From Arcanobacterium buesumense (lineage in GTDB: Bacteria > Actinomycetota > Actinomycetes > Actinomycetales > Actinomycetaceae): a stretch of 64,000 nt of DNA. Position numbers and translations under genes: made by a program. Below the pieces are notes generated by a model. That model made no database searches. It was not told where the DNA came from and saw only the letters and a program-made list of their open reading frames with translations. The stretch lies in assembly GCF_012563545.1 (NCBI RefSeq), contig NZ_CP050804.1:1843285-1907284 (forward strand). Direction: 5' to 3'. This document shows positions 21,919 to 42,350 of the stretch, piece by piece (position 1 is the first letter of the stretch; each line of letters opens with the position of its first letter).

Positions 21919-21969
21919 TGATCAGTCACCATTAGGAAGGCTGGCCGGAAAAGCACTATTCTTATAGTC

Positions 21970-23250: not shown

Positions 23251-23359
23251 CGTGACTGGTGTGGATTTTGCGCGGTCCGGGAGTAGTGCTCCCGGACCGC
23301 TACCCTATTTTACTGAGGCATTAGCGCAACGGCAGTTACCTTCAGCTGGCCCACAGTTA

Positions 23360-24190
23360 ATGGTTGCCCTAGATATTGATGGCACAACGATTCGTCATGA
23401 TACGTCTCTTTCGCCGCGGGTTCGGGATGCGATTCATGCTCATCTTGATGCTGGGACACATCTCGTGTTCGCTACCGGCCGGGGTATTACTGGCACTCAG
23501 ATTGCGCTGGCCGATGTTGGTTTTAATCGTGGGATTACGGTGATGTGCAATGGGGCAGTGACTGCCTCAGTTGGGGGCGAATTACCAGATTCGGTCACTA
23601 CCGCGTTGCCTGATTTTTTAGACGATGACGGGCCAGTGTATCGGCTAGTCGAAGCGCATACGTTTAATCCGCGGCGCGAGATTGAGGTTCTGTCTGCCGG
23701 ATTACCAGATGACGTGTGGTATGCGTTAGAGACGCTAGATGAACCGACCCGTGTGACGTATCCATTTCCCGCAGATGAGCTATCGGGGCCGAGCCGGCTT
23801 GTCTCGATTGACGAATTAGCCTCTGATCAAGCTACTCGACTAACCGTGCGGGCAGCCAAAATGAGTGCTCATGAACTGTTAGAGGCAGTTAACCAGCTAG
23901 GTTTGCGTGGTGTGGAGTATGCCGTTGGCTGGTCTGCCTGGATGGATATTACTCCGGAAGGGGTTTCGAAGGCATCCGCGTTGGAGTCAGTTCGCCGGCG
24001 TTGGGGTATCGATCTGGCGCACACCGTGTGTGTTGGCGATTCTGGTAACGATGTGGACATGTTGGCGTGGGCTGGCTTAGGAATTGCGATGGGTAACGCG
24101 CCGGATTACGTTCGCGATTATGCTGACGCGTTCACTGATCACGTTGACGACGACGGGTGCGCTGCTGTCCTTGAGTCTCTCTTGCCGTGA
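23360..24190 (+). CDS. Cof-type HAD-IIB family phosphatase
   Basis: Motif I LDIDGTT, motif II FATGRG, motif IV GDSGNDVDML. The start is placed at MVALDIDG. The longer GTG-initiated ORF from 23234 overlaps serS. Confidence 0.7.
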   Translation: MVALDIDGTTIRHDTSLSPRVRDAIHAHLDAGTHLVFATGRGITGTQIALADVGFNRGITVMCNGAVTASVGGELPDSVTTALPDFLDDDGPVYRLVEAHTFNPRREIEVLSAGLPDDVWYALETLDEPTRVTYPFPADELSGPSRLVSIDELASDQATRLTVRAAKMSAHELLEAVNQLGLRGVEYAVGWSAWMDITPEGVSKASALESVRRRWGIDLAHTVCVGDSGNDVDMLAWAGLGIAMGNAPDYVRDYADAFTDHVDDDGCAAVLESLLP

Positions 24191-26338
24191 GGGACGCTGG
24201 GCAGCTTGCCCGGCGATCATGGCTGATAGGGCCGGCAAGGCGATATATAGGCCTTCTTTGATCATTATTGCGCCCGAATCGTTAATCGGTACGGCAACAA
24301 GAATACCTACTGCAATCCCGATAGCTACCGGAATGAAACCATATCCAGAGGTTAGGGTGTGTAGTGAAGAAAGATGGATACCTGAGACGTTATTCAAGTA
24401 GCGGGTGGCATAGATGGCAAGCACACCAGCGATCAGGAATAACGCGATAAGGATAAGCAGATCTGGCCGGCCTACAAAAGAGCGGGTCACGTCACGGATT
24501 TTTCCACCGATAATCGCCCAGCTTTCTGCGGTTCCAAACTTTGCCCAGAAACGACCGATATGTGATTCGCCGCCACGGCGAGCATCAACAAAACCGACTG
24601 CTCCCATCACAGCTACCGTGCTAGCAACCCACACAAGCAGATGCCACCATCGTAATTTTTTCCGTGTGATCACAAGGATCGCAACACCAAAACCGGCGAT
24701 AAGTCCAGGTGGGCCACCAAAATCGGCACCCCATAGCGGGATAGCGTCGATGGCAACTGCAATAACCCCGATAGTGGCGAATACCCAGGTGGAAACGCGG
24801 GTATCGTCGTCGATTGCACGCCGTAACTGAAGCCAGTTAATGATCAATAACGAGCCTACTAAGCCGCCCACAACCAAAATCAAGTAGGTACGGTTAGAGA
24901 TGCCGTAGTAGCGCCGGGAAGTCAAAATGAGTGACCCCATAAATCCATTGCGTTGATGTGGCGAACCGGCAATAATATCGATGCTGAGCACACTGAACGC
25001 TACAAGGGCTATAAATCCGGCGCGATGCACACTCAGGTGTGAGATAGCAACAAGAGCCACGGCAATCAAAGATGTTATGCCGATTGCCCATGCCTGCATT
25101 GCGCCAGGCCCGCCAGGCAAATCCCACCACGGTAAGAAGTTCAGGATGAAGGCGGCAGGCACCCAAGCAAAAGCCCACAAGTTAACCTGTTCAAGAACAG
25201 ACCAGATTTTGCGTGGCGCGCCCCAGCGGTGTCCTTGCGGGCCGGGTTGGGCGAGGAAGCACAGGAGCACTCCGGCGATTCCGATAAGAACTACCATGTT
25301 GAAGAATTGATACCATTTGGCCGACGATGACGCCGCCGTGTAGGCGTGGTGTGCCACATCAAGAACTGGAACCATTGCGGCAGTTAACGATGGCTTACTT
25401 TCAGTGCGTAGCCCCGAATAGTTGCCGGTGATGAGGTTTCGTACGTCGGCAATGGTGATGAACCCGGTGGCGCGCGTAAGGTCGGAATGGATTGTGGCGG
25501 GGCCGCTAGCGCCGTCGATATCTATATTGGTGGCGAAGAAGTGCAGGTGGGCACGGCGCCATTGGTCTCCGAGGGAGGCGATAATAACTTTTCGTGGATG
25601 GTCACTATGCTTGTTTGCGGTGAGGATGTTGATAAGTTTTTGTTCCACGAAGGTGTGCTGGGTGGCAACATCGAGGTTTCGTGGGGCTCCGCGGATGGAG
25701 CCGATATCAACAACGACGTCGGCCGGAACTGTATCTAATATCCGGGTAAGTTCTGTTTGGGATTTTTCTTGGTTTTCGGCAAAACCGGCGTCAGGTAGCG
25801 GGTACCAGTGATCCACTGTGCCGTCTTTGCTGGCCACTGGAATTACTGCGTTGCGTCCAATAGCTGTGACGTTCTCGGAAAATAGTGGTTTATCAGGCCA
25901 TTGAGTTTGTCCCAAGCGCCCCGCAAAGTTACGAATATGTACTGGGGCGTGGTCAGCATCTATCGATGCTGGATCTTCAATAATGCTCGCCGGGTAGCAT
26001 TCGTCACCGGAGGAGACAACGAAGGATTCTGGCAGACGGTCAGAAACATCACGTGAGGTACGTAACTGCATCCATCCTTCGGAAGGACACGTGAGAGTGG
26101 ACACTGATCGGGGGGTTAAAGCCGCTACCGAGTAATCGTCTAGCAATCTGGAAAGAGCTGGATTGCTCAGGTCGATATCGGCTGGTTTAACTCCTGCCAT
26201 ACCGATGAAAAGTACGGAATCACGGGAAGAAGTCGGCGCCGTCGTTGATAAAGCTGAAGCTAAAACACCAGTACTGACTATGCCAATAACGCCTAGTATC
26301 CCAACTAGTATGGCAATCAAACGAGCACGCACGTCCAC
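24077..26338 (-). CDS. Large membrane protein, paralog of 18506-20707 (signal anchor + extracytoplasmic domain + polytopic C-terminal domain)
   Basis: Same architecture and shared motifs as the paralog (see that entry). Confidence 0.6.
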   Translation of the reverse strand: MDVRARLIAILVGILGVIGIVSTGVLASALSTTAPTSSRDSVLFIGMAGVKPADIDLSNPALSRLLDDYSVAALTPRSVSTLTCPSEGWMQLRTSRDVSDRLPESFVVSSGDECYPASIIEDPASIDADHAPVHIRNFAGRLGQTQWPDKPLFSENVTAIGRNAVIPVASKDGTVDHWYPLPDAGFAENQEKSQTELTRILDTVPADVVVDIGSIRGAPRNLDVATQHTFVEQKLINILTANKHSDHPRKVIIASLGDQWRRAHLHFFATNIDIDGASGPATIHSDLTRATGFITIADVRNLITGNYSGLRTESKPSLTAAMVPVLDVAHHAYTAASSSAKWYQFFNMVVLIGIAGVLLCFLAQPGPQGHRWGAPRKIWSVLEQVNLWAFAWVPAAFILNFLPWWDLPGGPGAMQAWAIGITSLIAVALVAISHLSVHRAGFIALVAFSVLSIDIIAGSPHQRNGFMGSLILTSRRYYGISNRTYLILVVGGLVGSLLIINWLQLRRAIDDDTRVSTWVFATIGVIAVAIDAIPLWGADFGGPPGLIAGFGVAILVITRKKLRWWHLLVWVASTVAVMGAVGFVDARRGGESHIGRFWAKFGTAESWAIIGGKIRDVTRSFVGRPDLLILIALFLIAGVLAIYATRYLNNVSGIHLSSLHTLTSGYGFIPVAIGIAVGILVAVPINDSGAIMIKEGLYIALPALSAMIAGQAAQRPSRQERLKDSSAPVVVNVISERVSIIANVIRRVTHRNS

Positions 26339-26459
26339 CCCTTCAAACGGTTCCTTATTCCATACTAGAGCAAAATTCTTCCGTACCAGTTTTTACTTGA
26401 GAGACAATTCCCTTACAATAATGAGAGCGTTAAGTTTCCTGCAGGTTTCTTGAGGCTAA

Positions 26460-26547
26460 GGAGAGTTGTCAGAGCGGCCGAATGAGCTGGTCTTGAAAAC
26501 CAGTATGCAGTAACCCTGCATCAAGGGTTCGAATCCCTTACTCTCCG
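26460..26547 (+). tRNA. tRNA-Ser (anticodon TGA), CCA not encoded
   Basis: Acceptor GGAGAGT/ACTCTCC. Anticodon loop CUUGAAA. Long variable arm. T-arm GGTTCGAATCC. Confidence 0.85.
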
Positions 26548-26612
26548 CTGGTTATCACGGTACACACTCTGAATTGGTGAAAACTTTTTCAGACCGGTAT
26601 GGTGGACAACCT

Positions 26613-26704
26613 GGAGACATGGCTGAGTGGTCGAAAGCGCTCCCCTGCTAAGGGAGTAGTCGCCTAAAAGCGGCTCGAGGGTTCAAATCCCTCTGTCTCC
26701 GCCA
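26613..26704 (+). tRNA. tRNA-Ser (anticodon GCT), CCA encoded
   Basis: Acceptor GGAGACA/TGTCTCC + GCCA. Anticodon loop CUGCUAA. Long variable arm. Confidence 0.85.
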
Positions 26705-26742
26705 AAACCCCGGCAGAAGTATCTGCCGGGGTTTTATTATTT
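26705..26742 (+). terminator. Terminator after the tRNA-Ser pair (ccccggcag..ctgccgggg + TTTTATTATTT)
   Basis: 9-bp stem, 6-nt loop, T-tract. Confidence 0.65.
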
Positions 26743-26770
26743 GCTAGGCCCACAACCCCAGTCTACCGAT

Positions 26771-26890
26771 CCGATTAGCCCGGTTAGTGTGAACCGTCAT
26801 CCCCTGCCAGCAGGGAACCCTACACAAAATCTCGCCAGACGGGACAGCAGTACTCTATATGATACTGCTGTGCCGAATCCCGAGATTTTG
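26771..26890. repeat. Copy A of a dispersed palindromic repeat family. The core runs 26824-26890 (aaaatctcg ... nested hairpin ... cgagattttg). Its upstream arm shares cccgattagcccggttag with copy D.
   Basis: Direct comparison with copies at 46605, 48795 and 51153. Confidence 0.7.
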
Positions 26891-27017
26891 CGCGCGTCAA
26901 ATTACTGGATTTAGCTCACAGCTTGGTAGGGATGCATTCTCTACCACGCTGTGTCTATATTTAGCAATGGCGACGATACGCGTGTATCACTTAAGCGAGA
27001 CTATGAAGGAGCTAGCT

Positions 27018-27515
27018 ATGACTGAGCAGACCTCAAACCCAGTAACCCCTGTTAAGCCTCCCTATATCGACCAGGTTCTTCCGGATGTTTATAACGCGAT
27101 GGAGGGTGTCGCGGTGGCATTAGGTAAGGCCTATGATGATGTCGACCTTCCGCGCACTCTTGTTGAGCTTGCTTATTTGCGGGCTTCGCAGCTCAATGGG
27201 TGCGCAACGTGCTTGTCTGTTCATGTACCGCGGGCATTGCAGGCCGGAGTTTCGCAGTGTCAGATCGACATGTTGCCGGCATGGCGTCACTCTCAGCGGG
27301 TATTTTCTGATCAGGAGATCATGGCGATCCGGTTAGCGGAAACAATTACTCGGCTTCCGGAAGATGCTGATTACAGTGCGCTAATCGGTGAAGCACTATC
27401 GGTTTTCACTAAAGAACAGCTTGTCGCTTTGGAGTGGGGAATTATCTCCATTAATGCTTTTAACCGGGTGTCAGTGGTGTCCCAACACCCAACTCGGAAG
27501 TACCCAAAGAACTAG
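27018..27515 (+). CDS. Carboxymuconolactone-decarboxylase-family protein (AhpD-like alkylhydroperoxidase core)
   Basis: CxxxH-type motif in LNGCATCLSVH. Size and layout typical of CMD/AhpD. GAAGGAG RBS before the ATG at 27018. Confidence 0.7.
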   Translation: MTEQTSNPVTPVKPPYIDQVLPDVYNAMEGVAVALGKAYDDVDLPRTLVELAYLRASQLNGCATCLSVHVPRALQAGVSQCQIDMLPAWRHSQRVFSDQEIMAIRLAETITRLPEDADYSALIGEALSVFTKEQLVALEWGIISINAFNRVSVVSQHPTRKYPKN

Positions 27516-27774
27516 TCGTTCCTTTTTGGTCCTGCGAGGGCGTACCGTTTTCACTTGTGAAATACGGTACGCCTTTTTATTTGTATCTACTTATTTGTCT
27601 TTATTTTCAATAGGACGTATATTTTCGAGGAAATGACCACAAGATGTTGAATAAACATTCTTTTCGATAATTGACTAATATCTACTATGTTCCTGTATTA
27701 GCAAAAAATTCATTATATTTTAGCGATATATATAGTAACATTTACGCATTTTCCATAAATATAGGGAGTCTGTA

Positions 27775-30484
27775 TGAAATGCAATAAACGCCTCGTTGGC
27801 ACGGCTTTGGGGCTGTGTCTTTTAACGTCATCGTTGCAGACTGGAATAATTGATGTTTTTCGGAACACAATTGACTGCTCATGCGGCTGTTGTTCAAGAT
27901 GATAGTCAACAACAAGTTGTCCCACAAGAAGTGAAAGATTATCTAGCCCAAAAGATCAATTGGAGAACTCAACACTTGCCCCCAAGAGGAAAATTGATGT
28001 CGCAACAGTGCAAGAGTACCTCGTAAAAGGCATTTCTGAGATGCAAGGTGCCATCGTTTTTATGGTGACTGCGATCTTTCCGATAAAGCAATCGCTCCCC
28101 TTATTTATAGCTATCCCTATGGTTCGCTGATTAAGCATGTTGCTGGCGAATGGAAAGTTGACAAAGAAGAAACCTCTTTCGAAAAGGGGTTATATAAGCA
28201 TACTGTGCGGTTTGCTTACCTTGTGAAGAAAGACGATGCGATCCGCGCCGATCAGCGTATTGATGAAATCGCTCAGTATTTGACTGCTAAGCTCAAGGAC
28301 CAAAAGGACGCATCTAAATCAGGTGACAGCGAGGATTATCGCAAAGCTCGACTCATCCATGATTACATCATTAAAAACGTTGAACCAGAAGCAGACGATA
28401 AGACCTCTAGCGGACAGTATTATGTTGACTCTGCTGAGGGCGACGGCAAGAAGTATGAAATCCACTCCCTCGAAGCTGGATTGTTCGCCCATAAAGGCGT
28501 CTGCCAAACGTATGCCATCATGTTTGATCGTATTGCTTCTCGAATGGGGCTAGACACTCGTTACATTCGTGGCAAGAAGACCTTTGGTTACTATGCCGAA
28601 GACGATACTCGAGCAAAGGAACGCATTGAGAAGCAGATTGAAGCCGGTAGGAAGATCGCGGCTAAAGGCGGACGCTGGCCAGATGCTAACCATTCATGGA
28701 ACCAAGTAAAAATTGATGGGCAGTGGTACCACCTCGATCTGACGGTTGACGCTGTTGCTGCACGTGTAGCCTATAAGTACACGTATGGCGGATTCTTGCT
28801 CACAGATGAGGAGTTTGGAAAGCCTGCGTCGTGGTGGCTTGGCGTTTTCAACAATAAGAGCTACTACACATACGTAGACGTTATGTGGAACCAGAGCGAG
28901 GCTCAACCAGCAACCACGCCAATGAACTTCGGTTCATTATTCAACGCGAAACATTTTTCACGCCCGATATTGCCTCACCTAGACGGAAAATACCATCCAT
29001 TAGGTAGCTTTAACGATTTGACTCAAGGCACCATTTCTACTCATACCACTTCTGAGCAAGCACAACCAGTGACCCAGATTGTCTCTGCGTACGGGGCTGA
29101 CGAAAAGGCGGAGATAGCTGCTGGCACATCAGCAGATGAGTTACTAAAGCTTCTCAAGGTACAGGGAATCACTACCCAGACTCAAGCAGAATATGTTCTT
29201 GGCACGATTGAAGATTCTCCAGTGTCACTCGAAACACCCGATGAATGGACTGCGGTCAAGGATACAATTGACTCACAGGTCGATCTTCATTCAGTAGCTG
29301 AAAATGGCGCCAAACTTACAATCCCAGTAGCTGTTGTTAAACCGGGAACGGAATCTCACGCGCTAGCCCGTATCCAGGCGAAGAATGGCAGCGCACATAT
29401 CGATCAGATTCATCCACAAGGCGAGAGCTATGACGAACGAGTGGATAAAGATGCCTATGAGGCACAGCGTAAAGTTGCCGAGGCAACAATCCTTTCTGAT
29501 ATTACATCTTCTTATACAGACGGTGACACCAACACATCAACCATTCACGTCTCTGTTCAAGGACTAGATACCATCAAGCTCGATACTCCTGGCGAATACC
29601 CGGTAGTCGTGGTTGCTCAGGGTAAAGATGGCTTGTGGACGAAGCTTGATTACCAGGTCGTCGTCGACGAAAAACAACGCCCAAGTAGCGTAACGATTAC
29701 CACCAAGGATAATGCGGACGTGTTGAACGTTGCCTCGGATACCAAATATTATGTTGATCCGTCATCGTTCCATAGCTTCTTAGGTAAACGCGAAGGCGTT
29801 AACTTAATTGCCAAGCGCACCAATTCATTCGGGCTAACGTCCCAGGTCGACGAAACTATCTCTTTCGTTGATTCCGCCGGCAAAGAGTGGCCACACAACG
29901 AAAGCGAAGATATATTTATCGACGCTGATGGCAACCGGTTGTTTAACGACATAAAGATGGTTGACCTGGTTCGTAAAGCAGGTTCATACCGGATTAAAGT
30001 AACCGCTCAGTACGCTCAAGAAGCCCCGAAGGTTCGTTACATCACCGTCAATATTACGAATGGCGACGATCAGGCATCTGAGGCAGCACAGCATGAGGCT
30101 ATTATGACCGTTGACCGGCTTGAGAATCTTTCGATGACGTCGAAGATCAAGTATGAGAATGAAATTCGGGAGCTTTCTTCGGCAAGCGCTATTGCTGATG
30201 TTGTTAAGCGAGCTACGAATGATCTCTCAGAAAAGACGTCTGTTTCATACATTGTGGAACACGTTGACAAGGAAACTGGTCAAGCTCTCACTTACCCAGT
30301 GAAGAAAATCGACTTCGTTGGGGCTACGGTAAAAGAGCAGGCCGACAGCTATCTTTTGAGCAAGGGACACCTGGTTGATCTGACAGAACAAGAGCTGCGG
30401 TTAACTGGCGGAGGTCAAAAGATTACTTTCACGTATTCGCGTCAGGCTGATCCGGCAAACCAGACCGATACTGTAGCAGAATAA
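27775..30484 (+). pseudogene. Secreted transglutaminase-like cysteine-protease-domain protein with C-terminal repeat/Ig-like region. The 5' 430 bp is broken by at least three frameshifts. The intact distal ORF is 28205-30484.
   Basis: RBS-preceded ATG at 27775 encodes a signal peptide (MKCNKRLVGTALGLCLLTSSLQTG) but stops at 27900. Protein-like sequence continues in two other frames and then in the 28205 ORF frame from about 28040 with no start codon. TGase-like core motifs GVCQTYAIMF...HSWNQVKIDGQWYHLDLT (Cys-His-Asp). Confidence 0.55.
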
Positions 30485-30746
30485 GCCAACTATAATCACA
30501 AATATCACGGTGGGGAGCAGGCCGATTTTACAGTACTATAGGAATGTATTTCCTCGCAAATGAGAAACGACAACCTATTATGATAACTTTCGCTATTTTA
30601 GCCATTATCGGTACCGCAATTATTCTTCTTTCAGTGATTTTGATGGCGTCTTTGACCTCATTATTCCTGATGATTTCTTAGGTTTTCCGCTTCTGCTATC
30701 TGCTGGTTTAGCATTCACGCTGATTGGGTGTTCTGGCGCCATCGCT

Positions 30747-31157
30747 ATGGGTAGTGGAGCACGTGGCGGTACGGTTTATGCCGTTATTTGCGTTGTGACG
30801 ATTATTGGACTATTAATTTTTGCCAGGTTTTACCGGCTGTTAGCTTCTGCGGCGAAAAAGTCCGAGATTGAAGAATCAGTTGTTGGAAAAGAATTTATTG
30901 TTGTTTCGACGATGGACAACATTGTTCGTGGCACAGTACGTTTTCGTGGATCCGACGTTGAATTCTTAGCTCATGCACCGCACGATGAAACTAGTATCGC
31001 ACCTGGCGATAAGTTCACTGTTTTATCTGATGTTCGCCCCTACATTACAATTACCCGCATTGACGAATGCCTAAAGAAGACACTGTCACTGTTTGAAAAG
31101 AAAGACTATGGACATTATGGAAGCTATTTTACTTCTACCCCGTTTTTGTTGCGCTAG
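30747..31157 (+). CDS. NfeD-like membrane protein with C-terminal OB-fold (partner of SPFH/flotillin proteins). It is probably frameshifted: the upstream TM segment (ATG at about 30580) is in the -1 frame.
   Basis: TM + charged linker + beta-rich C-terminal domain typical of short NfeD. Upstream in-frame codons encode hydrophobic GFPLLLSAGLAFTLIGCSGAIA without a start. A 34-aa hydrophobic ORF (MITFAILAIIGTAIILLSVILMASLTSLFLMIS) in the other frame looks like the original N-terminus. Confidence 0.55.
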   Translation: MGSGARGGTVYAVICVVTIIGLLIFARFYRLLASAAKKSEIEESVVGKEFIVVSTMDNIVRGTVRFRGSDVEFLAHAPHDETSIAPGDKFTVLSDVRPYITITRIDECLKKTLSLFEKKDYGHYGSYFTSTPFLLR

Positions 31158-31168
31158 CAATTATCGCC

Positions 31169-32465
31169 GTGCTAGCTGCACTCCACCTTCTTGTTTCTCG
31201 CCTACGAATCGCTGGCCCTGATGAGGCTCTTGTTATTTCCGGTGCTGGGGAATCTGGGGCGATGAAAATTGTTCCTCCGGGTGGCAAAGTTTTTGTTGTG
31301 CCGATTTTGCAGAGCACTTCTAAGATTTCGTTGGAAGCCTACAAGATTCCGTTGTGATTGACTGCCTTGACCGGTCCACAATTCCACTCGATATTGAAGC
31401 AGTGGCAATGGTCAAGATTGGTCGTCGAACTCATCGATTCGGGCTGCATCAGAACGTTTCAATGGCCGTCAAGAAACACTGCCAGACTCCGTCGTCGAAG
31501 TTCTTTCCGGAACTCTACGTTCGGTCGCTGGCCGATTGTCTGTATCGGAACTTATTTCTGATCGTGAAACGTTCTCCAGCCAGGTCGCGCAAGGCGCCGA
31601 AGAAGATCTCGCACGTATGGGCATCCCTGTTGATACGCTACAAATCAAAGATATCTCGGATAAAAACGACTACATCATGGCGTTAAGTGCCCCAGAAGCA
31701 CAACGAGTCTCACGTATTGCGCGCGTAGCAACGGCAGAAAATGAGACGCAGGCAAACGAAGCTGAAGCTGAATCAAAGCGTAAGATCGCTGAACAGAACA
31801 AGGATCTGGAAGTCTACCAGGCCGAAATGAAGCGCATGACGATGGAAGCCCGGGCGATTGCGGATGCGGCTGAGCCGATCGAACGCGCGAAGCAAGAAAA
31901 GCTGATTACGTTGCGCGAGCAGGAAGTCGCCGAGCAAAAGGCTGTTTTGAAGGAACGCGAACTGGAAGCCAGCGTTCGCAAACCGGCTGATGCGGAACGT
32001 TACCGCGTTGAGGTTCAAACTGAGGCTCGCAAGGTTGAGGCCGTGTTGAAGGCAGAAGCCGATGCGGAAGCAATCAAGAAGACCGGTAATGCTCAAGCAG
32101 AAGCAAGCAAGGCTCTTGGTTTGGCGCAGGCAGAAGCAGACAAGGCTCAAGGTTTGGCACGTGCTGAGGCCGACAAGGCTCAAGGTTTGGCAGAAGCAAC
32201 TGCGATGGACGCCAAGGCGTACGAATGCATCGATAAGATGACCGTCATTTCAACCGATGGCACAACCGCCCTCACCCGTGGAGTGACCAACAACGTCAGC
32301 CAGCTCAACGAAGTTATCAACGATCTGTTAGGCATCAACTTGGGAACGCTCACCAGCGGAATCTTGCAATCCACCAAGCTATTCCAAACAGAAGATCATC
32401 AGGCCGAGACAGAGGGCCATGATGCTGAGCTATCCGCCCCGAAAACCGGGCTGGATGAGGAGTAA
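31169..32465 (+). pseudogene. Flotillin-like SPFH (band-7) protein gene disrupted by at least two internal frameshifts plus a probable one at the 5' end
   Basis: Pieces in three frames: LAALHLLVSRLRIAGPDEALVISG..KISLEAYKIPL (frame 2), VIDCLDRSTIPLDIEAVAMVKIG (frame 1), ASERFNGRQETLPDSVVEVLSGTLRSVAGRLSVSELISDRETF... and a long Ala/Glu/Lys coiled coil (frame 0). Together they reconstitute a flotillin (FloT/YuaG-like) layout. Confidence 0.6.
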
Positions 32466-32499
32466 CTTTCTGTTTCTGCTAGACCATCTGGAGAAAAGG

Positions 32500-32528
32500 A
32501 TTGACAGTTGACATACGCCAAAATATGA
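32500..32528 (+). promoter_or_regulatory. Sigma-70-like promoter for the putative tracrRNA. -35 TTGACA (32500-32505), 17-bp spacer, -10 TATGAT (32523-32528).
   Basis: Consensus hexamers with canonical spacing, read directly from the sequence. Confidence 0.4.
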
Positions 32529-32534
32529 TGGGTG

Positions 32535-32640
32535 TGTAACTGATTTCTCAGTAAGCTCTACCATGTTTGTAGAGTTGAATGCTCCACCGGTTTCCGGTTT
32601 TATATTCGGGCTGTGTTTTTCAACACGGCCCGAATATTTT
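32535..32640 (+). ncRNA. tracrRNA: Putative tracrRNA of the type II-C system: 5' anti-repeat, nexus-like hairpin, two further hairpins, intrinsic terminator ending in TTTTT
   Basis: GUGUAACUGAUUUCUCAGU is complementary (one bulge, a few G:U pairs) to the 5' half of the repeat as transcribed from the minus strand (GCUGGGAGUCAGUUACAUAAC). Hairpins ctctac..gtagag and ccgg..ccgg, terminator attcgggc..gcccgaat + ATATTTTT, directly upstream of cas9. Confidence 0.55.
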
Positions 32641-32655
32641 TGCCATAATAGTGTC

Positions 32656-35600
32656 ATGTCTGATGTTATTAATTTTCGTGTAGGTATTGATGTTGGCACT
32701 AATTCAGTGGGTTTAGCCGCTATAGAAATTGGGCCAGATAATTTGCCGTCGAAAATCCTTAATTCTGTAGTTTTTACGCATGATGGTGGCGTGGATCCAC
32801 AAAATCGCAAAACAGCAGCGACTCGGTTAGCTGTCTCGGGAGTGGCCCGTCGAACACGTAGACTCATTCGACGGAGAAAACAACGTCTCCGTGCTCTTGA
32901 TGTTTTCCTACAATCCCATGGATATCCTTGCCCAAACCTTGAAGAGTTCGACGATCCTCACTTTCCGTGGCATGCTCGCGCTCAACTGGTTTCTGAGCCT
33001 GTTGCACAAGAAGAACTACCTGAACTTTTTTCCGTTGCGATACGGCATATAGCCCGCCATCGGGGATGGCGTAATCCTTATTCACGAGTAGAATCACTGC
33101 ATCTGCCAACACCGCCTTCAGAGGAATTGAATAACCTCAAAAATAGACTGATTGAAGAAACCGGAGTCGTACTAGATGAAGATGCGACACCTGCAGAAAT
33201 AATCACTGAAGTTATCTCAGATATGCGAAAGATACGTGGTCCTGAAGGAATCCTCGGTGGAAAACTTCGCCAGTCAGATAACGCAAATGAGATTCGTAAA
33301 ATTGGCGAAGTTCAAGGATTGGATTCCTCTTTTATTAATGACGTTATTGATCATGTGTTCGCTGCCGAATCTCCTAAAGGAAGTTCCGCAAAACGTGCCG
33401 GGAAGGATGAACTTCCAGGCCAGCACGACAAGTTCCGTGCCGAAAAGGCGCATCCTGCATTCCAGGAGTTCCGAATTGTTTCAGTAGTAGCAAATCTACG
33501 TATCAAAGATCTTGAGACAGGAAGTATCCGTAAGCTTACCCGCGATGAGATGGATACAGTTGTTACATATTTAATGAATGCTTCTGCTGAAGATTCTGTT
33601 ACATGGGATGACGTTGCTACCAAATTAGAGATTTCTAGAGATTGTTTATCTGGAACAGCTTCACCTGGCCCAGATGGTGATCGCCCTTATTTGATCCCAC
33701 CAACTAACACAACAAATCAACGCATACTTGAGTCTAAGCTAAAACCGCTTATTGCTTTTTGGAAGAATGCAGATCTAGATACTCGGTCTACACTGATTAA
33801 CGAGATGTCGAATTCATCAGAGATTACCGATGATTCCCCAGGAGCAGAAGAAGTTCATGACTTCTTGACTTCTTTAGCAGACACAGAATTAGAAAAACTA
33901 TCAACAATTAGTCTTCCCGCCGGAAGAGCGGCTTATTCGGTAGATTCACTTCAACGCTTGTCTCGGCGGATGCTTAACGATGGCGTTGATCTTTTCACCG
34001 CACGCAAATTAGAGTTTGATGTGCCTGATGATTGGCGCCCATCAGCTGCCCCTATAGGCGATCCAGTTGGCAATCCTGGAGTTGATAGAGTTCTTAAAAT
34101 TGTTAACCGCTGGTTAATGAATGTTACCGACAAATGGGGAGTTCCAGCCACAGTAAATATCGAGCATATTCGCGGTGGATTTGGTTCCGAAGCTATGGCT
34201 CGTGAATATGAACGTGAAGTTGGACAGCGCTTCAAGCGCAATCAAATGATTATCGCCAAAATACAAAAAGATAATGACATTAGTGGACCTGTCCGTTCCG
34301 CAGATATTACCCGCTACTTGGCCGTTAAGCGCCAAAATGGGGCATGCGCGTATTGTGGTACAACTATTTCTCTGGGAACTTGCGAAATGGATCATATTGT
34401 TCCACGAAAGGGACAAGGCTCTACAAATAGTCGATCCAATTTATTGGCTACCTGCCGTTCTTGTAACCATAGCAAGGGAAATAGGTTGTTTAACTTATGG
34501 GCTAAAGAACAGAACAACCCTAATATCTCATTTGAAAAAGCAAAGGATAGAATCACGTTCTGGATTAAGGATGACGGCTTATCACCAAAACAATGGAACC
34601 AGTTTAAGCGTGATATCATTATGCGACTTGGTCGAGTTACCGAAGATGACGAACTTGATTCACGCTCTATCGAATCAGTTGCTTGGATGGCGAGAGAGCT
34701 TCGCCATCGTATTGAGTCTCATTATTTGTCTACAGGTTCCGATACAAAAGTTAACGTTTTTAAGGGAATGATAACGTCAGAAGCTCGCAAGGCTTCTGGC
34801 TTTGAAATGCAAGTAGAGATGATAGGCGATCGTGGAAAAACACGATTGGATCGACGTCATCATGCTATGGATGCTTGCACTATCGCACTAATGTCTCCTT
34901 ATGTTGCACAGGTGTTGGCTGAGCGCATTAATTTACGAGAGTACCAGCAACTTACTCGTGAACGATTCACCTGGAAAGAGTACCGAGGAAAGGATGAAAC
35001 TCATCGTATTTCCTATGGTAAGTGGCTTAACTCTATGAATCGTCTGTTAGTTCTGTTCAACGAGGCACTGCGCTCTGATTCGATTCCAATTATGGAAGAT
35101 CTTCGTTTACGTCTTGGAAATGGTACTGCTCATGATGCCACTATCCATAAGTTTGGCAAGAAACGCCTTGGTGACGCATGGTCATTCGAAGATATCGACA
35201 AGGCTTCAACCCCACAAATGTGGCTAGCATTAACTCGTTGTTCTGATTTTGACCAAAAGGATGGTCTTCCAGAAAATCCTGAGCGAACTATACGAGTCAA
35301 AGATGTCTACTATACTGCTGATGATGAACTGGAGTTGTTCCGAACTAAGGCAGCACTACTTTCGGTACGCGGAGGTTATGCAGAAATTGGTAATACTATT
35401 CACCATGCTCGCATTTACCGTATCAACGGAAAGAAGATCTCCTATGCGATGGTACGAGTTTTCGCAGTAGATCTTCATAAACACCGCCATGAGGATTTAT
35501 TTAATGTTGTCCTTCCTCCGGAATCTATTTCAATAAGAACTGCTGCGCCAAAAATTAAGCAGGCATTGGCTGATGGAACTGCTGAGTATCTTGGTTGGGT

Positions 35601-35940
35601 TGTTGCTGGGGATGAAATTGAAATCATTCCGTCAGATCCTAAGGCCTTCGCCAAAGGCGCTATAGGTGAATTATTTGAGGATTTCCCTGGGTTGACACGT
35701 TTTAAGCTAGTTGGATTCGACTCTCCTTCAAAACTACGTTTGCGACCAGTCAAGCTTTCTAGCGAAGGCCTCAATGACAACTTTACTTCAGGTAGCCACG
35801 ACATTATTGCTAAAGCTGGGTGGCGTCCAGAAATCAATGTCGTATTTAGCAAAGCTCAAGTACGCGTCATCCGAAGAACTACTTTAGGAAACATTCGGAA
35901 TACCAGTAGTTCACATCTTCCATCATCATGGCAGGTCTAA
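32656..35940 (+). CDS. cas9: Type II-C CRISPR-associated endonuclease Cas9 (compact, about 1094 aa)
   Basis: RuvC-I GIDVGTNSVGLA, RuvC-II NIEHIRGG, HNH DHIVPRKGQGSTNSRSNLLATCRSCNHSKGN, RuvC-III HHAMDACTIAL. Followed by cas1-cas2. Start placed at MSDVINF. The longer ORF from 32563 would overlap the tracrRNA. Confidence 0.95.
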   Translation: MSDVINFRVGIDVGTNSVGLAAIEIGPDNLPSKILNSVVFTHDGGVDPQNRKTAATRLAVSGVARRTRRLIRRRKQRLRALDVFLQSHGYPCPNLEEFDDPHFPWHARAQLVSEPVAQEELPELFSVAIRHIARHRGWRNPYSRVESLHLPTPPSEELNNLKNRLIEETGVVLDEDATPAEIITEVISDMRKIRGPEGILGGKLRQSDNANEIRKIGEVQGLDSSFINDVIDHVFAAESPKGSSAKRAGKDELPGQHDKFRAEKAHPAFQEFRIVSVVANLRIKDLETGSIRKLTRDEMDTVVTYLMNASAEDSVTWDDVATKLEISRDCLSGTASPGPDGDRPYLIPPTNTTNQRILESKLKPLIAFWKNADLDTRSTLINEMSNSSEITDDSPGAEEVHDFLTSLADTELEKLSTISLPAGRAAYSVDSLQRLSRRMLNDGVDLFTARKLEFDVPDDWRPSAAPIGDPVGNPGVDRVLKIVNRWLMNVTDKWGVPATVNIEHIRGGFGSEAMAREYEREVGQRFKRNQMIIAKIQKDNDISGPVRSADITRYLAVKRQNGACAYCGTTISLGTCEMDHIVPRKGQGSTNSRSNLLATCRSCNHSKGNRLFNLWAKEQNNPNISFEKAKDRITFWIKDDGLSPKQWNQFKRDIIMRLGRVTEDDELDSRSIESVAWMARELRHRIESHYLSTGSDTKVNVFKGMITSEARKASGFEMQVEMIGDRGKTRLDRRHHAMDACTIALMSPYVAQVLAERINLREYQQLTRERFTWKEYRGKDETHRISYGKWLNSMNRLLVLFNEALRSDSIPIMEDLRLRLGNGTAHDATIHKFGKKRLGDAWSFEDIDKASTPQMWLALTRCSDFDQKDGLPENPERTIRVKDVYYTADDELELFRTKAALLSVRGGYAEIGNTIHHARIYRINGKKISYAMVRVFAVDLHKHRHEDLFNVVLPPESISIRTAAPKIKQALADGTAEYLGWVVAGDEIEIIPSDPKAFAKGAIGELFEDFPGLTRFKLVGFDSPSKLRLRPVKLSSEGLNDNFTSGSHDIIAKAGWRPEINVVFSKAQVRVIRRTTLGNIRNTSSSHLPSSWQV

Positions 35941-36863
35941 CTACTGAAAGATGGAGGTCCTTGGACTTTAGTCAGTTCAGGGGCTCTATCTCAGCTGTTC
36001 GTGGAGCGTTGTCGGTTAAAAATGATGAATTAGATCTGACTGTCCCAACAGCTGATGTTAGTGTCGTTCTTATTGGCGTTGGCACAAAACTATCTGCCGG
36101 AGCTATGCACCGTCTCTTAGAAGATGATGTTGCAGTTATTTTTTGTGATTGGAAGGGCGTTCCCTATGGTGGTTCTTTTGGATGGAGCGATCATAGCCGA
36201 GTAGGTGCTCGCCATCGTGCCCAAGCTTCTCTCTCGGAGCCAAAAAGAAAATCGACCTGGGCTCGTATCGTAAAGGCAAAAATTTTAGGTCAAGCGGCCG
36301 TGCTTGACTACTGTTCACGTCCCGGGGGCTCCTTACTGCGTAACCTATCAAAAAATGTACGATCTGGTGATACTTCTAATGTTGAAGGTCAAGCGGCAAG
36401 ATCTTATTGGCAATATTTGTGGGGTGATGAAGGATTTAAACGGCAGCCGGGAATACGGGATCAAGTTCTTCCAAGTAACTCAATGCTTGACTACGGTTAT
36501 ACAATTCTTAGAGGTCACGCGATACGGGCGGTTTTTAGCGCAGGTTTATCGCCAACTATTGGGTTGTTTCATCATGGGCGTTCCAATTATTTTGCACTTG
36601 CAGATGACATTATTGAGCCATTTCGCCCTGCGATAGATGCGTGTATCGCATCAGAGTTTTCCGGTGAATCAATTGAAAGTCCTGACATTCGCAGAGCTAT
36701 CGTTGAGGTTGCACATTCCACTTTCGGACAGACTGGGAATTCCATTCCAACTGAAATGACAGCTCTTGCTCAACGTTTAGGACAATTAATCGAAGGGGAT
36801 CCACAGAAGCTATTGGTTAATGTGTGGTCGCCTATTATGACCTTAGGCATCACAGATGAGTAG
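35928..36863 (+). CDS. cas1: CRISPR-associated endonuclease Cas1 (type II)
   Basis: Conserved Cas1 blocks (..LDYGYTILRG.., acidic C-terminal region). Start overlaps the cas9 stop. Confidence 0.9.
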   Translation: MAGLTTERWRSLDFSQFRGSISAVRGALSVKNDELDLTVPTADVSVVLIGVGTKLSAGAMHRLLEDDVAVIFCDWKGVPYGGSFGWSDHSRVGARHRAQASLSEPKRKSTWARIVKAKILGQAAVLDYCSRPGGSLLRNLSKNVRSGDTSNVEGQAARSYWQYLWGDEGFKRQPGIRDQVLPSNSMLDYGYTILRGHAIRAVFSAGLSPTIGLFHHGRSNYFALADDIIEPFRPAIDACIASEFSGESIESPDIRRAIVEVAHSTFGQTGNSIPTEMTALAQRLGQLIEGDPQKLLVNVWSPIMTLGITDE

Positions 36864-37176
36864 TGATCCCATGTGGTGTCTTGTAATGTTTGACTTACCA
36901 ACGAAAACAGCTTCACAAAAACGTGAGTATTCGTCATTTCGAAATTATTTGTTAGATATTGGTTTTTCTCGTGTGCAATATAGTGTTTACGTACACTACT
37001 CCCCCACAGGGCTTATTGGTACTCGTCTAGTCAAGGGAATCAAAGCTAATCTTCCGCCTGGTGGCGAGGTTAGGATTGTTCACATCAGCGATAGACAATG
37101 GTCCAAAGCATTTCGTTTTGCTAATGCAATTGAAGAAAAACCAGAAGAAGCTCCCCAGCAATTAATGATTTTTTAG
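36856..37176 (+). CDS. cas2: CRISPR-associated endoribonuclease Cas2
   Basis: About 100 aa. N-terminal LVMFDLP pattern typical of Cas2. Overlaps the cas1 stop. Confidence 0.85.
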   Translation: MSSDPMWCLVMFDLPTKTASQKREYSSFRNYLLDIGFSRVQYSVYVHYSPTGLIGTRLVKGIKANLPPGGEVRIVHISDRQWSKAFRFANAIEEKPEEAPQQLMIF

Positions 37177-37226
37177 TGTTTGGGGCACCATTTTTTGTTG
37201 AAATAGTGCCCCAAACACTAACTCCT

Positions 37227-38030
37227 TAAGTCTATCAAGGAGTTATGTAACTGACTCCCAGCCCTCGATTTTAGCTGCTCTGGCATCGTCTAAGTCTATC
37301 AAGGAGTTATGTAACTGACTCCCAGCCCTGAACAGCTCCATGCGAATACTCGATTAAGTCTATCAAGGAGTTATGTAACTGACTCCCAGCACGCCACCCT
37401 GGCTTACTGAACGTGCCGTAAGTCTATCAAGGAGTTATGTAACTGACTCCCAGCGCTGCGGCGCGAACCAGAAGCAGAAGCTTAAGTCTATCAAGGAGTT
37501 ATGTAACTGACTCCCAGCCTGGCCTTGCACTTGTTGCATTTCGATCTAAGTCTATCAAGGAGTTATGTAACTGACTCCCAGCCGCGGTATCTGGGAAATC
37601 CCGGACGTTGTAAGTCTATCAAGGAGTTATGTAACTGACTCCCAGCCTAACGATAACAGGATCGGCAAAGCCCATAAGTCTATCAAGGAGTTATGTAACT
37701 GACTCCCAGCCACTCTTTCAGGCATCGCACAAAAGTTCTAAGTCTATCAAGGAGTTATGTAACTGACTCCCAGCTAGAAGAAGCTATCGAACAGATTGGC
37801 GCTAAGTCTATCAAGGAGTTATGTAACTGACTCCCAGCGGCGAAAATAGTTAGGTTTACAGCGTCTTAAGTCTATCAAGGAGTTATGTAACTGACTCCCA
37901 GCCTATTCTAGGGGTTCCACGCGTGATACTTAAGTCTATCAAGGAGTTATGTAACTGACTCCCAGCAACCGCAACAAATCAACGAAAAGGCGCGTAAGCC
38001 CCTTAAGGAATTACGCAGCCAGATCCCAAC
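37227..38030. CRISPR. CRISPR array: 12 identical 36-nt repeats (taagtctatcaaggagttatgtaactgactcccagc) plus one degenerate terminal repeat (37995-38030), 12 spacers of 28 nt, period 64. It is probably transcribed on the minus strand.
   Basis: Repeat positions counted directly: 37227, 37291, 37355, 37419, 37483, 37547, 37611, 37675, 37739, 37803, 37867, 37931, and degenerate at 37995. Confidence 0.95.
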
Positions 38031-42216: not shown

Positions 42217-42350
42217 ATTTACTCCCTCATAACAGGTACTCACGGCAAGGTATAAGCATCCCTCAGCTGTGCCAGTGGAACGATCAGCGACTGGCTTGGA
42301 GAGTCCACGATGACACTCCACAACTGCAAAAATCGTAGCACAAAATAAAC

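What the first reader, a model, noticed from the sequence alone, without database searches (positions are those of the whole stretch)
27550..32500. AT-rich islet abutting the CRISPR locus in which all three larger genes (TGase-like secreted protein, NfeD, flotillin) are frameshifted
Three neighbouring genes in a visibly AT-richer segment each show protein-like sequence continuing across frame changes. The TGase-like gene has a signal-peptide ORF that stops at 27900, and its coding frame resumes without a start codon. NfeD's hydrophobic N-terminus sits in a -1 frame, with a T5 run nearby. Flotillin is split over three frames. Either this horizontally acquired islet is decaying while the adjacent CRISPR-Cas is kept, or the assembly has systematic indel errors in AT-rich or homopolymer sequence. 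The two readings lead to very different annotations.
Basis: seen in the sequence. Interest (0 to 1): 0.55.

Follow-up and report, generated by a model that had tools for sequence, protein, structure and literature searches.

The report
Three decaying genes beside CRISPR-Cas9
Three neighbouring accessory genes of Arcanobacterium buesumense (a secreted transglutaminase-like protein, an NfeD-like protein and a flotillin) are real pseudogenes broken by nine single-base indels, not assembly errors; this is ordinary gene decay in a variable genome hot spot, with an oddly clustered pattern of mutations.

Summary
The window comes from Arcanobacterium buesumense strain 2701. Aligned with the intact syntenic genes of A. 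phocae, it shows nine single-base indels: three in the TGase-like gene, two in the NfeD-like gene and four in flotillin. Flotillin also carries three in-frame deletions, one of which removes its conserved C-terminal Flot domain.

The lesions are not assembly artefacts. An independent Logan assembly of a second read set matches the window exactly over 19,050 bp, covering every lesion. A contig from the other, ONT-like run agrees at all six NfeD and flotillin sites. The other 51 kb of long ORFs, including the more AT-rich cas9, hold 119 A/T runs of five or more and no frameshift.

The roughly 5 kb segment is accessory. It is absent from two uncultured relatives, replaced by other genes in two sister species, and separately broken or deleted in a second A. 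phocae strain. Low dN/dS, saturated dS and no nonsense codons point to recent decay.

The kind of thing is already known. The one oddity is that the indels are mostly T deletions and fall in two patches.

The parts
26460..26704 (+). Two tRNA-Ser genes (tga 26460-26548, gct 26613-26704) at the left edge of the variable region
   Evidence: ARAGORN and Rfam
27018..27515 (+). Intact CMD (carboxymuconolactone decarboxylase family) gene, the conserved left anchor of the islet
   Evidence: 93% aa identity to A. phocae. dN/dS 0.025. Orthologues served as anchors.
27516..27773 (.). AT-rich leader (31.8% GC) holding the CMD terminator hairpin (about 27538-27580) and the likely promoter region of the TGase-like gene. 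The islet starts here.
   Evidence: Homology to the islet-less relatives L008-L010 stops at 27509 and that to L007 at 27527.
27774..30484 (+). Pseudogene of a secreted transglutaminase-like protein (about 903 codons when repaired). It has a signal peptide, a PF01841 core with the Cys/His/Asp motifs, and Ig-like C-terminal domains.
   Evidence: The intact A. phocae orthologue is 900 aa. GenBank annotates it as a 753-aa CDS, QJC22562.
27856..27860 (+). Lesion 1: +1 in a T5 run (codon about 29). The frame then hits stops at 27900.
   Evidence: DNA alignment with A. phocae and three-frame translation
27964..27965 (+). Lesion 2: -1 (TGGAG-AAC here, TGGAGTAAA in A. phocae), codon about 64
28057..28061 (+). 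Lesion 3: -1 in a T run (T6 in A. phocae, T5 here), codon about 96
30580..31157 (+). Pseudogene of an NfeD-like membrane protein (163 codons in A. phocae)
   Evidence: tblastn split over two frames. Weak PF01957 hit. Fold hit to the NfeD C-terminal domain 2EXD. GenBank annotates a 136-aa fragment as QJC22563.
30638..30641 (+). Lesion 4: -1 in a T run (T5 in A. phocae, T4 here), NfeD codon 21, inside the first transmembrane segment
31068..31074 (+). Lesion 5: probable +1 just before the ancestral stop. TAA 31072-31074 is now out of frame, so the ORF runs on 27-28 codons to TAG 31155-31157.
   Evidence: Read from the sequence and the A. phocae alignment. Placement is ambiguous by 1-3 nt.
31117..32465 (+). 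Pseudogene of a FloT-type flotillin (499 aa in A. phocae, about 450 codons here when repaired)
   Evidence: tblastn over three frames. The repaired protein gives a full-length Band_7 match but has lost the PF15975 Flot match. GenBank and RefSeq annotate fragments of 62, 309 and 342 aa.
31123..31124 (+). Lesion 6: -1 right after ATG GAA (codon 3). There are 28 nt between the ATG and GTTGC here, against 30 nt in A. phocae.
   Evidence: Counted. Frame 0 then reads YFTSTPF.
31143..31147 (+). Lesion 7: -1 in a T run (T6 in A. phocae, T5 here), codon 11, inside the membrane hairpin
31355..31355 (+). Lesion 8: -1 (GTTGTTG becomes GTTGTG), codon 81, which creates TGA
   Evidence: The same sequence is in the ONT-like contig.
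31422..31422 (+). Lesion 9: -1 (GGTTCG becomes GGTCG), codon 104
32049..32209 (+). Three in-frame deletions relative to A. phocae (33 bp at 32049, 33 bp at 32193, 87 bp at 32209). The last removes 29 conserved residues (EALEKYGQAAIIETLVKALPQIAGEYAKA) of the Flot domain.
   Evidence: The segment is conserved in the 53%-identical outgroup P0006. The PF15975 match is lost.
32499..32655 (+). Right boundary of the islet: a strong promoter (TTGACA-17-TATGAT, 32501-32529) and a tracrRNA-like element with an anti-repeat at about 32524-32551, upstream of the true cas9 start
   Evidence: Homology to the islet-less relatives resumes at 32537.
32656..38030 (+). Intact type II-C CRISPR-Cas: cas9 32656-35940, cas1 35928-36863, cas2 36886-37176, and an array of 13 repeats (the last degenerate) with 12 spacers at 37227-38030

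Best explanation
The segment from about 27516 to 32495 is an accessory three-gene module. It holds a secreted transglutaminase-like protein followed by an NfeD-like/flotillin membrane-scaffold pair. It sits in a hypervariable slot between the CMD gene, which follows two tRNA-Ser genes, and the CRISPR-Cas locus. The common ancestor of A. buesumense and A. phocae already carried it.

In A. buesumense strain 2701 all three genes have recently become pseudogenes. Nine single-base indels, mostly loss of one T in short T runs, break the reading frames near the gene starts. As a result:
- the signal peptide is cut off from the TGase body;
- the first transmembrane segment is cut off from NfeD;
- the membrane hairpin and half of the SPFH domain are cut off from flotillin.

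Flotillin has also lost its C-terminal Flot domain through an 87-bp deletion.

Shown here: the lesions, their presence in independent read sets, the synteny, and the accessory nature of the segment.

Inferred: loss of function, relaxed selection as the cause, and replication slippage as the source of most indels.

The neighbouring type II-C CRISPR-Cas is intact and presumably still under selection.
For: - Identity of the genome: a 100% match to the A. buesumense protein on a 1,941,174-bp contig. That genome was assembled with Unicycler from Illumina and MinION reads and polished with Pilon (PMC7498426).
- Intact orthologues lie in the same order in A. phocae DSM 10002. tblastn and DNA alignments place each frameshift.
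- The Logan contig SRR11560446_28 is 100% identical to window 18205-37254.
- The Logan contig SRR11559465_58 is 99.45% identical. Its 14 differences sit mostly in or beside GGCC motifs, and it agrees at all six NfeD and flotillin lesions. The published sequence differs from it at 31216 and 31376, that is 21-73 nt from lesions 7-9, so the published sequence there is not a copy of this error-bearing ONT-like consensus; that it is Illumina-backed is inferred from the exact match of L006, taken to be the Illumina run.
- Internal control: 51,164 nt of other long ORFs hold 119 A/T runs of five or more and no frameshift. The AT-richer cas9 and cas1 hold 16 such runs and are intact. Adjacent ORF pairs elsewhere give separate, full-length Pfam domains.
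- Lesions that no homopolymer error could produce: the 87-bp deletion of a conserved flotillin segment and the resulting loss of the PF15975 match.
- Accessory status: the module is absent between CMD and cas9 in L008-L013 and between CMD and the type I-E genes in L007. Sugar genes take its place in A. phocisimile and A. pinnipediorum. In a second A. phocae strain the TGase gene is separately frameshifted and the NfeD/flotillin pair is missing.
- Recency: dN/dS is 0.05-0.09, like the neighbours (0.03-0.12), with dS of 1 or more, and the repaired genes contain no nonsense codon.
Against: - I could not inspect raw reads. Assigning SRR11560446 to Illumina and SRR11559465 to MinION is inferred from error patterns and accession order, not looked up.
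- Only one strain of the species is available, so I cannot show that the lesions are fixed in the species.
- The lesion pattern does not fit uniform neutral decay. There are nine indels, no nonsense codons and very few extra amino-acid changes, and the lesions fall in two patches.
- A 759-codon TGase ORF stays open, and GenBank and RefSeq treat the fragments as genes. Residual function of the fragments is therefore not excluded.
Confidence: 0.9

Rival explanations
1. Assembly or sequencing artefact. The indels would be homopolymer or AT-context errors of the hybrid assembly, for example an unpolished Nanopore bridge, and the genes would be intact in the cell.
For: - The genome used MinION R9 reads.
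- Four of the nine lesions lie in T4-T6 runs.
- Deletions dominate, as they do in Nanopore errors.
Against: - An independent k-mer assembly of a second read set is identical over 19 kb, including all nine sites.
- The error-prone, ONT-like contig shows its own errors in and beside GGCC motifs, which the published sequence lacks. Both still agree at the six lesion sites they share.
- Five lesions are not in homopolymers of four or more.
- 119 A/T runs of five or more in 51 kb of other ORFs are clean.
- The 33- and 87-bp deletions are not errors of that type.
Confidence: 0.03
2. The frameshifts are functional: programmed recoding, transcriptional slippage or phase variation that still yields full-length proteins. 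Alternatively, the truncated ORFs (753-aa TGase, 136-aa NfeD, 309-342-aa flotillin) are the working products.
For: - Several lesions lie in T runs.
- The long TGase ORF keeps the PF01841 core and the Cys/His/Asp motifs.
- GenBank and RefSeq annotate the fragments as proteins.
Against: - The T runs are only 4-5 nt long, far shorter than known slippage or phase-variation tracts.
- Five sites have no run at all.
- Up to four separate corrections per gene would be needed, and each out-of-frame stretch meets a stop quickly.
- The fragments lack the signal peptide or the membrane anchor.
- Flotillin also lacks its Flot domain.
- The same module is being lost in a second A. phocae strain and is absent from relatives.
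Confidence: 0.05
3. The genes are real pseudogenes, but the lesions did not build up one by one under neutral drift. Either a few error-prone repair tracts made them, as DinB-type polymerases produce -1 frameshifts near DNA breaks and perhaps in connection with recombination that swapped the adjacent CRISPR-Cas module. Or selection favoured ever earlier truncation of costly secreted or membrane junk peptides.
For: - The lesions fall in two patches, 27856-28061 and 30638-31423. The gene-blind clustering test gives P = 0.002-0.008.
- The bias towards gene 5' ends gives P = 2.6e-6 under a uniform model and 1e-4 to 1e-3 when weighted by T-run targets.
- Six of the seven deletions look like loss of a T.
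- There are no nonsense codons.
- Flotillin codons 1-104 carry four frameshifts yet stay 95% identical in protein to A. phocae, with dN 0.033.
Against: - The numbers are small.
- The thresholds were chosen after seeing the data.
- The hydrophobic N-terminal coding regions are T-rich, which accounts for part of the bias.
- No closer relative is available to count substitutions since inactivation.
- I have no direct evidence for a break or for a DinB-type polymerase.
- CRISPR self-targeting was tested and not supported.
Confidence: 0.2

Closest known systems
NfeD-flotillin operons of Firmicutes and Actinobacteria (Bacillus subtilis yuaF-floT/yuaG, recalled from my own knowledge)
   Same: - A small NfeD-like membrane protein is encoded directly upstream of a FloT-type flotillin.
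- The flotillin has an N-terminal hydrophobic hairpin, an SPFH/Band_7 domain and EA-rich coiled coils.
- The A. phocae orthologue matches the NCBIfam FloT model (E 6e-77) and PF01145 plus PF15975.
   Different: - Both genes are inactivated here, with two and four frameshifts.
- The Flot domain is deleted.
- The FloT equivalog cutoff is not reached even by the intact A. phocae protein (260 bits against 700).
- The pair is accessory within Arcanobacterium: the closest hits outside A. phocae are 53% identical or less.
Bacterial pseudogene formation in accessory or host-restricted genomes (small frameshifting indels, later removed by deletion)
   Same: - Orthologues are intact in a sister species.
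- Frames are disrupted without compensation.
- Sister lineages show later stages: complete absence, or a frameshifted TGase with NfeD and flotillin deleted.
   Different: - There are several hits per gene, clustered near the 5' ends.
- The spectrum is indel-only.
- Decay was assessed in one 64-kb window only, and no other gene there is affected.
Transglutaminase-like (PF01841) secreted or surface proteins of Gram-positive bacteria
   Same: - The PF01841 core scores above the gathering threshold (37 bits against 23).
- The motifs GVCQTYA, NHSWNQV and WYHLD carry the Cys/His/Asp triad.
- A Sec-type signal peptide is present.
- The C-terminal domains are Ig-like, with a sub-threshold match to InlK_D3.
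   Different: - The family is very narrow. Only A. phocae proteins (two alleles, 63-68% identical) and one Logan protein at 31% were found among 5.8 billion sequences.
- The function is unknown.
- The signal peptide is disconnected here.
tRNA-adjacent genomic islands and defence-system hot spots
   Same: - Gene content varies between conserved flanks.
- GC is lower (44-47% against 50.6-51.4% in the window flanks on either side).
- The region lies next to two tRNA-Ser genes.
- Different CRISPR-Cas types (II-C or I-E) occupy the same neighbourhood in relatives.
   Different: - No integrase, transposase or flanking direct repeat was seen in the islet.
- The islet is as diverged from its A. phocae counterpart as the core flanks are, so it is not a recent arrival.

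Membership tests
Pseudogene (disrupted orthologue) | Reading frame broken relative to an intact orthologue in the same genomic position | tested here: met
   Nine frameshifting indels were placed against the A. phocae genes in the syntenic locus L001.
Pseudogene (disrupted orthologue) | Lesions are present in the DNA and not produced by assembly | tested here: met
   The Logan contig of SRR11560446 is 100% identical over 19,050 bp. The contig of SRR11559465 agrees at six sites. Raw reads were not inspected.
Pseudogene (disrupted orthologue) | No compensation or recoding restores the product | tested here: met
   The net shifts are -1 (TGase), 0 with the first shift at codon 21 and the second at the stop (NfeD), and -4 (flotillin). 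Every out-of-frame stretch meets a stop. No long slippery tract is present.
Flotillin / FloT (SPFH superfamily) | SPFH/Band_7 domain (PF01145) | tested here: met
   The repaired protein matches profile positions 2-175 of 176 at 79.7 bits. The largest real ORF keeps only positions 106-175.
Flotillin / FloT (SPFH superfamily) | C-terminal Flot domain (PF15975) | tested here: not met
   The A. phocae orthologue has it at 42.3 bits. The repaired A. buesumense protein has no match, because the 87-bp and 33-bp deletions removed it.
Flotillin / FloT (SPFH superfamily) | NCBIfam FloT equivalog NF058507 above its cutoff | tested here: not met
   The A. phocae orthologue scores 259.7 bits against a cutoff of 700. 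It is a family-level relative, not an equivalog.
NfeD family | C-terminal NfeD OB-fold domain (PF01957) | tested here: inconclusive
   Pfam gives 18.3-18.7 bits against a cutoff of 29.1, and the A. phocae orthologue gives no hit. NCBIfam and PDB sequence searches give none. A low-confidence AF2 model (pLDDT 59.8) shows a helix followed by five strands, and its top Foldseek hit in the PDB is 2EXD, an NfeD C-terminal domain, at E 0.015 and TM 0.61.
NfeD family | Membrane protein encoded next to an SPFH gene | tested here: met
   Hydrophobic segments are visible in the sequence. The gene lies directly upstream of flotillin in both species.
Transglutaminase-like superfamily | PF01841 core above the gathering score, with a Cys/His/Asp triad | tested here: met
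   36.8-37.1 bits against a cutoff of 23. The triad motifs were read directly from the translation. Activity was not tested.
Horizontally acquired genomic island | Absent from related genomes between conserved flanks | tested here: met
   In L008-L010, homology jumps from window 27509 to 32537. L007, L014 and L016 lack the module.
Horizontally acquired genomic island | Deviant composition | tested here: inconclusive
   The segment is 46.9% GC, against 49% for the genome and 50% for the window. The flotillin 3' half is 53%.
Horizontally acquired genomic island | Mobility genes or flanking direct repeats | tested here: not met
   All ORFs of the segment are accounted for by the three genes. No repeat was seen at the boundaries by eye.
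Phase-variable or programmed-frameshift gene | Long homopolymer or repeat tract (about 7 or more) or a slippery heptamer with a stimulator at the shift site | tested here: not met
   The longest run in the three genes is 5 nt. Five of the nine sites are not in runs.

The most novel reading that the evidence does not exclude
The nine lesions may be the footprint of a localised, indel-specific process rather than slow neutral decay. One version is one or two tracts of error-prone repair synthesis producing -1 frameshifts, possibly tied to the recombination that exchanged the adjacent CRISPR-Cas module. The other is positive selection for progressively earlier truncation of costly secreted or membrane peptide stubs. 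Either would explain several hits per gene, the two tight patches near gene starts, the T-deletion bias, the absence of nonsense codons and the near-absence of accompanying substitutions.
Probability: 0.2. Interest if true: 0.5.

Novelty: already known. Interest (0 to 1): 0.2.

Why it matters
- **Annotation.** GenBank and RefSeq list five fragments as ordinary proteins: QJC22562-QJC22565 and WP_256367969, named 'transglutaminase domain-containing', 'NfeD family', 'hypothetical' and 'flotillin family'. They should be three pseudogenes. Those fragments have also entered UniRef clusters.
- **Biology.** A. buesumense probably lacks flotillin-based membrane scaffolding and this secreted TGase-like protein, both of which its sister species A. 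phocae DSM 10002 keeps.
- **Genome dynamics.** The slot between CMD and CRISPR-Cas turns over quickly in seal-associated Arcanobacterium. The module is present, decaying or gone, and the CRISPR-Cas beside it is type II-C or type I-E.
- **Mutation pattern.** The clustered, T-deletion-biased lesions are a small curiosity that may deserve a genome-wide look.

Tried and rejected
- **Genome-contig scan.** Searching with the A. phocae flotillin returned only two distant loci (a Planctomycete and a Lacrimispora) and no Arcanobacterium.
- **Exact-protein look-ups.** The NCBI 753-aa TGase and my CMD start choice were not on record. Looking up the 759-aa ORF did work.
- **CRISPR self-targeting followed by end-joining as the indel source.** None of the 12 spacers matches a lesion site. 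The best in-window hit is a 14-nt chance match at 28382-28395. Rejected.
- **Compensating frameshift pairs or ON/OFF toggling.** Every out-of-frame stretch contains stops, and the net shifts are not multiples of three. Rejected.
- **dN/dS as a sign of relaxed selection.** The test is uninformative because dS between the two species is saturated (1.0-4.7). It only shows that the decay is recent.
- **NfeD identity by sequence.** Pfam is sub-threshold, and NCBIfam and the PDB sequence search give nothing. Only a weak fold match supports it.
- **Remnant of the A. phocae 171-aa minus-strand gene between TGase and NfeD.** No tblastn hit in the window.

Full report
**Source of the window.** The 759-codon ORF at 28205-30484 is 100% identical to a protein of Arcanobacterium buesumense carried on a 1,941,174-bp contig. 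That is the closed chromosome of strain 2701 (NZ_CP050804.1), isolated from a harbour seal. It was assembled with Unicycler from Illumina NextSeq 2x151 and MinION R9 reads, with Pilon polishing, and its genome G+C is 49% (PMC7498426).

**Checking the observation.** ORF listing and three-frame translation show protein-like sequence jumping between frames in all three genes. A. phocae DSM 10002 has the same locus with intact genes, in this order: CMD, a TGase-like protein of 900 aa, a small minus-strand gene, an NfeD-like protein of 163 aa and a flotillin of 499 aa. tblastn of those proteins against the window splits each over several frames. DNA alignments place the lesions.

| Gene | Lesion | Window position | Note |
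|---|---|---|---|
| TGase-like | +1 | 27856-27860 | in a T5 run |
| TGase-like | -1 | 27964/65 | |
| TGase-like | -1 | 28057-28061 | T6 to T5 |
| NfeD-like | -1 | 30638-30641 | T5 to T4 |
| NfeD-like | probable +1 | 31068-31071 | old TAA now out of frame; ORF 27-28 codons longer |
| Flotillin | -1 | about 31123 | |
| Flotillin | -1 | 31143-31147 | T6 to T5 |
| Flotillin | -1 | 31355 | |
| Flotillin | -1 | 31422 | |

Flotillin also has in-frame deletions of 33, 33 and 87 bp. Pfam supports the gene identities: Transglut_core scores above threshold, Band_7 is full-length once the protein is repaired, and NfeD is only sub-threshold. A low-confidence model of the NfeD C-terminal part has the P. horikoshii NfeD C-terminal domain 2EXD as its best PDB fold match.

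- A Logan assembly of run SRR11560446 yields a 24-kb contig. The 19,050 bp of it that I could fetch match window 18205-37254 exactly, so it reproduces every lesion.
- A Logan contig of run SRR11559465 covers 30332-32898 at 99.45% identity. Its 14 differences lie mostly in or beside GGCC motifs, which is the pattern expected of methylation-related Nanopore errors. It agrees with the window at all six NfeD and flotillin lesions. The published sequence differs from it at 31216 and 31376, that is 21-73 nt from lesions 7-9. So the published sequence there is not a copy of the ONT-like consensus; that it is Illumina-backed is inferred from L006.
- The accession order of the two runs matches the MinION and Illumina experiments named in the paper. 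The platform assignment is my inference.
- As an internal control, 51,164 nt of other long ORFs in the window hold 119 A/T runs of five or more and 304 runs of four, with no frameshift. cas9 and cas1, at 44-46% GC, are more AT-rich than the islet and intact. Adjacent same-strand ORF pairs elsewhere are separate genes with full-length Pfam domains.

In addition, five of the nine lesions are not in runs of four or more. The 87-bp deletion of a conserved flotillin segment removes the PF15975 match that the A. phocae protein has, and homopolymer error cannot produce that. The same segment is conserved in the 53%-identical outgroup P0006. I conclude that the lesions are in the DNA.

**Is it an islet?** I used the CMD gene as an anchor.
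- Two uncultured relatives place CRISPR-Cas directly after CMD: type II-C in L008-L013 and type I-E in L007.
- In L008-L010, homology to the window jumps from 27509 to 32537. This defines a segment of about 5 kb.
- A. phocisimile and A. pinnipediorum carry a galactose/lacto-N-biose gene set at that position, followed by type I-E genes.
- A second A. phocae strain (GCA_018912905) has flanks 94.7% identical to DSM 10002. Its TGase allele is very divergent (59-70% aa) and is itself split by a frameshift into 506 and 403 aa. It has no NfeD or flotillin.
- Close flotillin homologues were found only in A. phocae. The next best hits are 53% identical or less. TGase homologues are rarer still.

The module is therefore accessory and repeatedly lost. 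It is not a recent arrival, however. Its divergence from the A. phocae copy (dS of 1 or more) matches that of the flanking core genes. Its GC is only slightly low, at 46.9%. No mobility gene is present.

**Timing and mode of decay.** Pairwise dN/dS of the repaired genes is 0.05-0.09, within the range of the neighbours (0.03-0.12). Purifying selection therefore acted for nearly all of the time since the two species split, and inactivation is recent.

**What remains odd.**
- Seven of the nine indels are deletions, and six of those look like loss of a T.
- The lesions fall in two patches, 27856-28061 and 30638-31423. The 2.58 kb of TGase ORF between the patches and the 1.04-kb flotillin 3' part carry no frameshift. 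The gene-blind clustering test gives P = 0.002-0.008.
- The bias towards gene starts gives P = 2.6e-6 under a uniform model and 1e-4 to 1e-3 after weighting by T-run targets.
- Flotillin codons 1-104 carry four frameshifts yet remain 95% identical to A. phocae.

CRISPR self-targeting does not explain this pattern. Error-prone repair tracts, selection for earlier truncation, or chance acting on T-rich hydrophobic coding sequence all remain possible.

**Verdict.** The "decaying accessory islet beside a retained CRISPR-Cas" reading is supported, and the "assembly error" reading is refuted as far as is possible without raw reads. This is a known kind of event. Its main practical consequence is that five database "proteins" are fragments of three pseudogenes.

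Noticed in passing
window 32563-38030; L001 15519-22703; L007; L008-L013; L014; L016: Different CRISPR-Cas types occupy the same neighbourhood downstream of CMD in close relatives. Type II-C is in A. buesumense and in one uncultured lineage. Type I-E is in A. phocae DSM 10002, A. phocisimile, A. pinnipediorum and another uncultured lineage. A. phocae GCA_018912905 has none at this position. The locus looks like a defence-system exchange hot spot.
   Followed up: partly
window 32499-32655: A near-consensus promoter (TTGACA-17-TATGAT, 32501-32529) is followed by a tracrRNA-like element. This has an anti-repeat resembling the plus-strand CRISPR repeat at about 32524-32551, then hairpins and a T-rich terminator. 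It is conserved in L008-L010. It lies inside the 1125-codon 'cas9' ORF, so the true cas9 start is probably the ATG at 32656, giving 1094 aa.
   Followed up: partly
L005 (Logan SRR11559465_58) against window 31216, 31376, 32414, 32627-32629, 32733-32735, 32840-32846: Most of the 14 differences between the ONT-like contig and the finished sequence fall in or beside GGCC motifs (GGCCC, GGTCC, GAGGGCC, ACGGCCCG, GGCCAG, GTGGCCCG); at least one (C to T at about 32425, in a GATGCTGAG context) does not. This suggests that the strain methylates GGCC and that the modification misleads R9 base-calling.
   Followed up: no
L018 8001-10681 (A. phocae GCA_018912905): Within A. phocae, the TGase-like gene exists as two alleles only 59-70% identical in protein, while the flanks are 94.7% identical in DNA. 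This allele is itself frameshifted near codon 500. That points to diversifying selection or allele replacement of a surface protein, plus independent decay.
   Followed up: partly
window 38984-42342: The kinase-like gene (APH) and the lacto-N-biose phosphorylase gene to the right of the CRISPR array are 85-86% identical in DNA to A. phocisimile and A. phocae GCA_018912905. The core genes on the left flank are only 70-74% identical. The epimerase and GalT genes that accompany them in those species were not matched in the window by blastn. This could reflect recent transfer or strong conservation of this sugar module.
   Followed up: no
window 26460-26704: Two tRNA-Ser genes (anticodons TGA and GCT) lie just upstream of CMD, at the left edge of the variable region.
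   Followed up: no
window 27774-32465 (database records): GenBank and RefSeq annotate the fragments as ordinary CDSs: QJC22562 (753 aa), QJC22563 (136 aa), QJC22564 (62 aa), QJC22565 (309 aa) and WP_256367969 (342 aa). By my arithmetic, 342 aa ahead of the stop at 32465 would begin at 31437, where the codon is ATT; the record's own start was not looked up. These fragments are members of UniRef clusters.
   Followed up: yes
window 46737-48530 and 52419-53594: The right part of the window holds other genes typical of defence or toxin systems. One is a Schlafen/AlbA_2 protein with HATPase_c_4 and HTH domains. The other is a HipA-like kinase.
   Followed up: no
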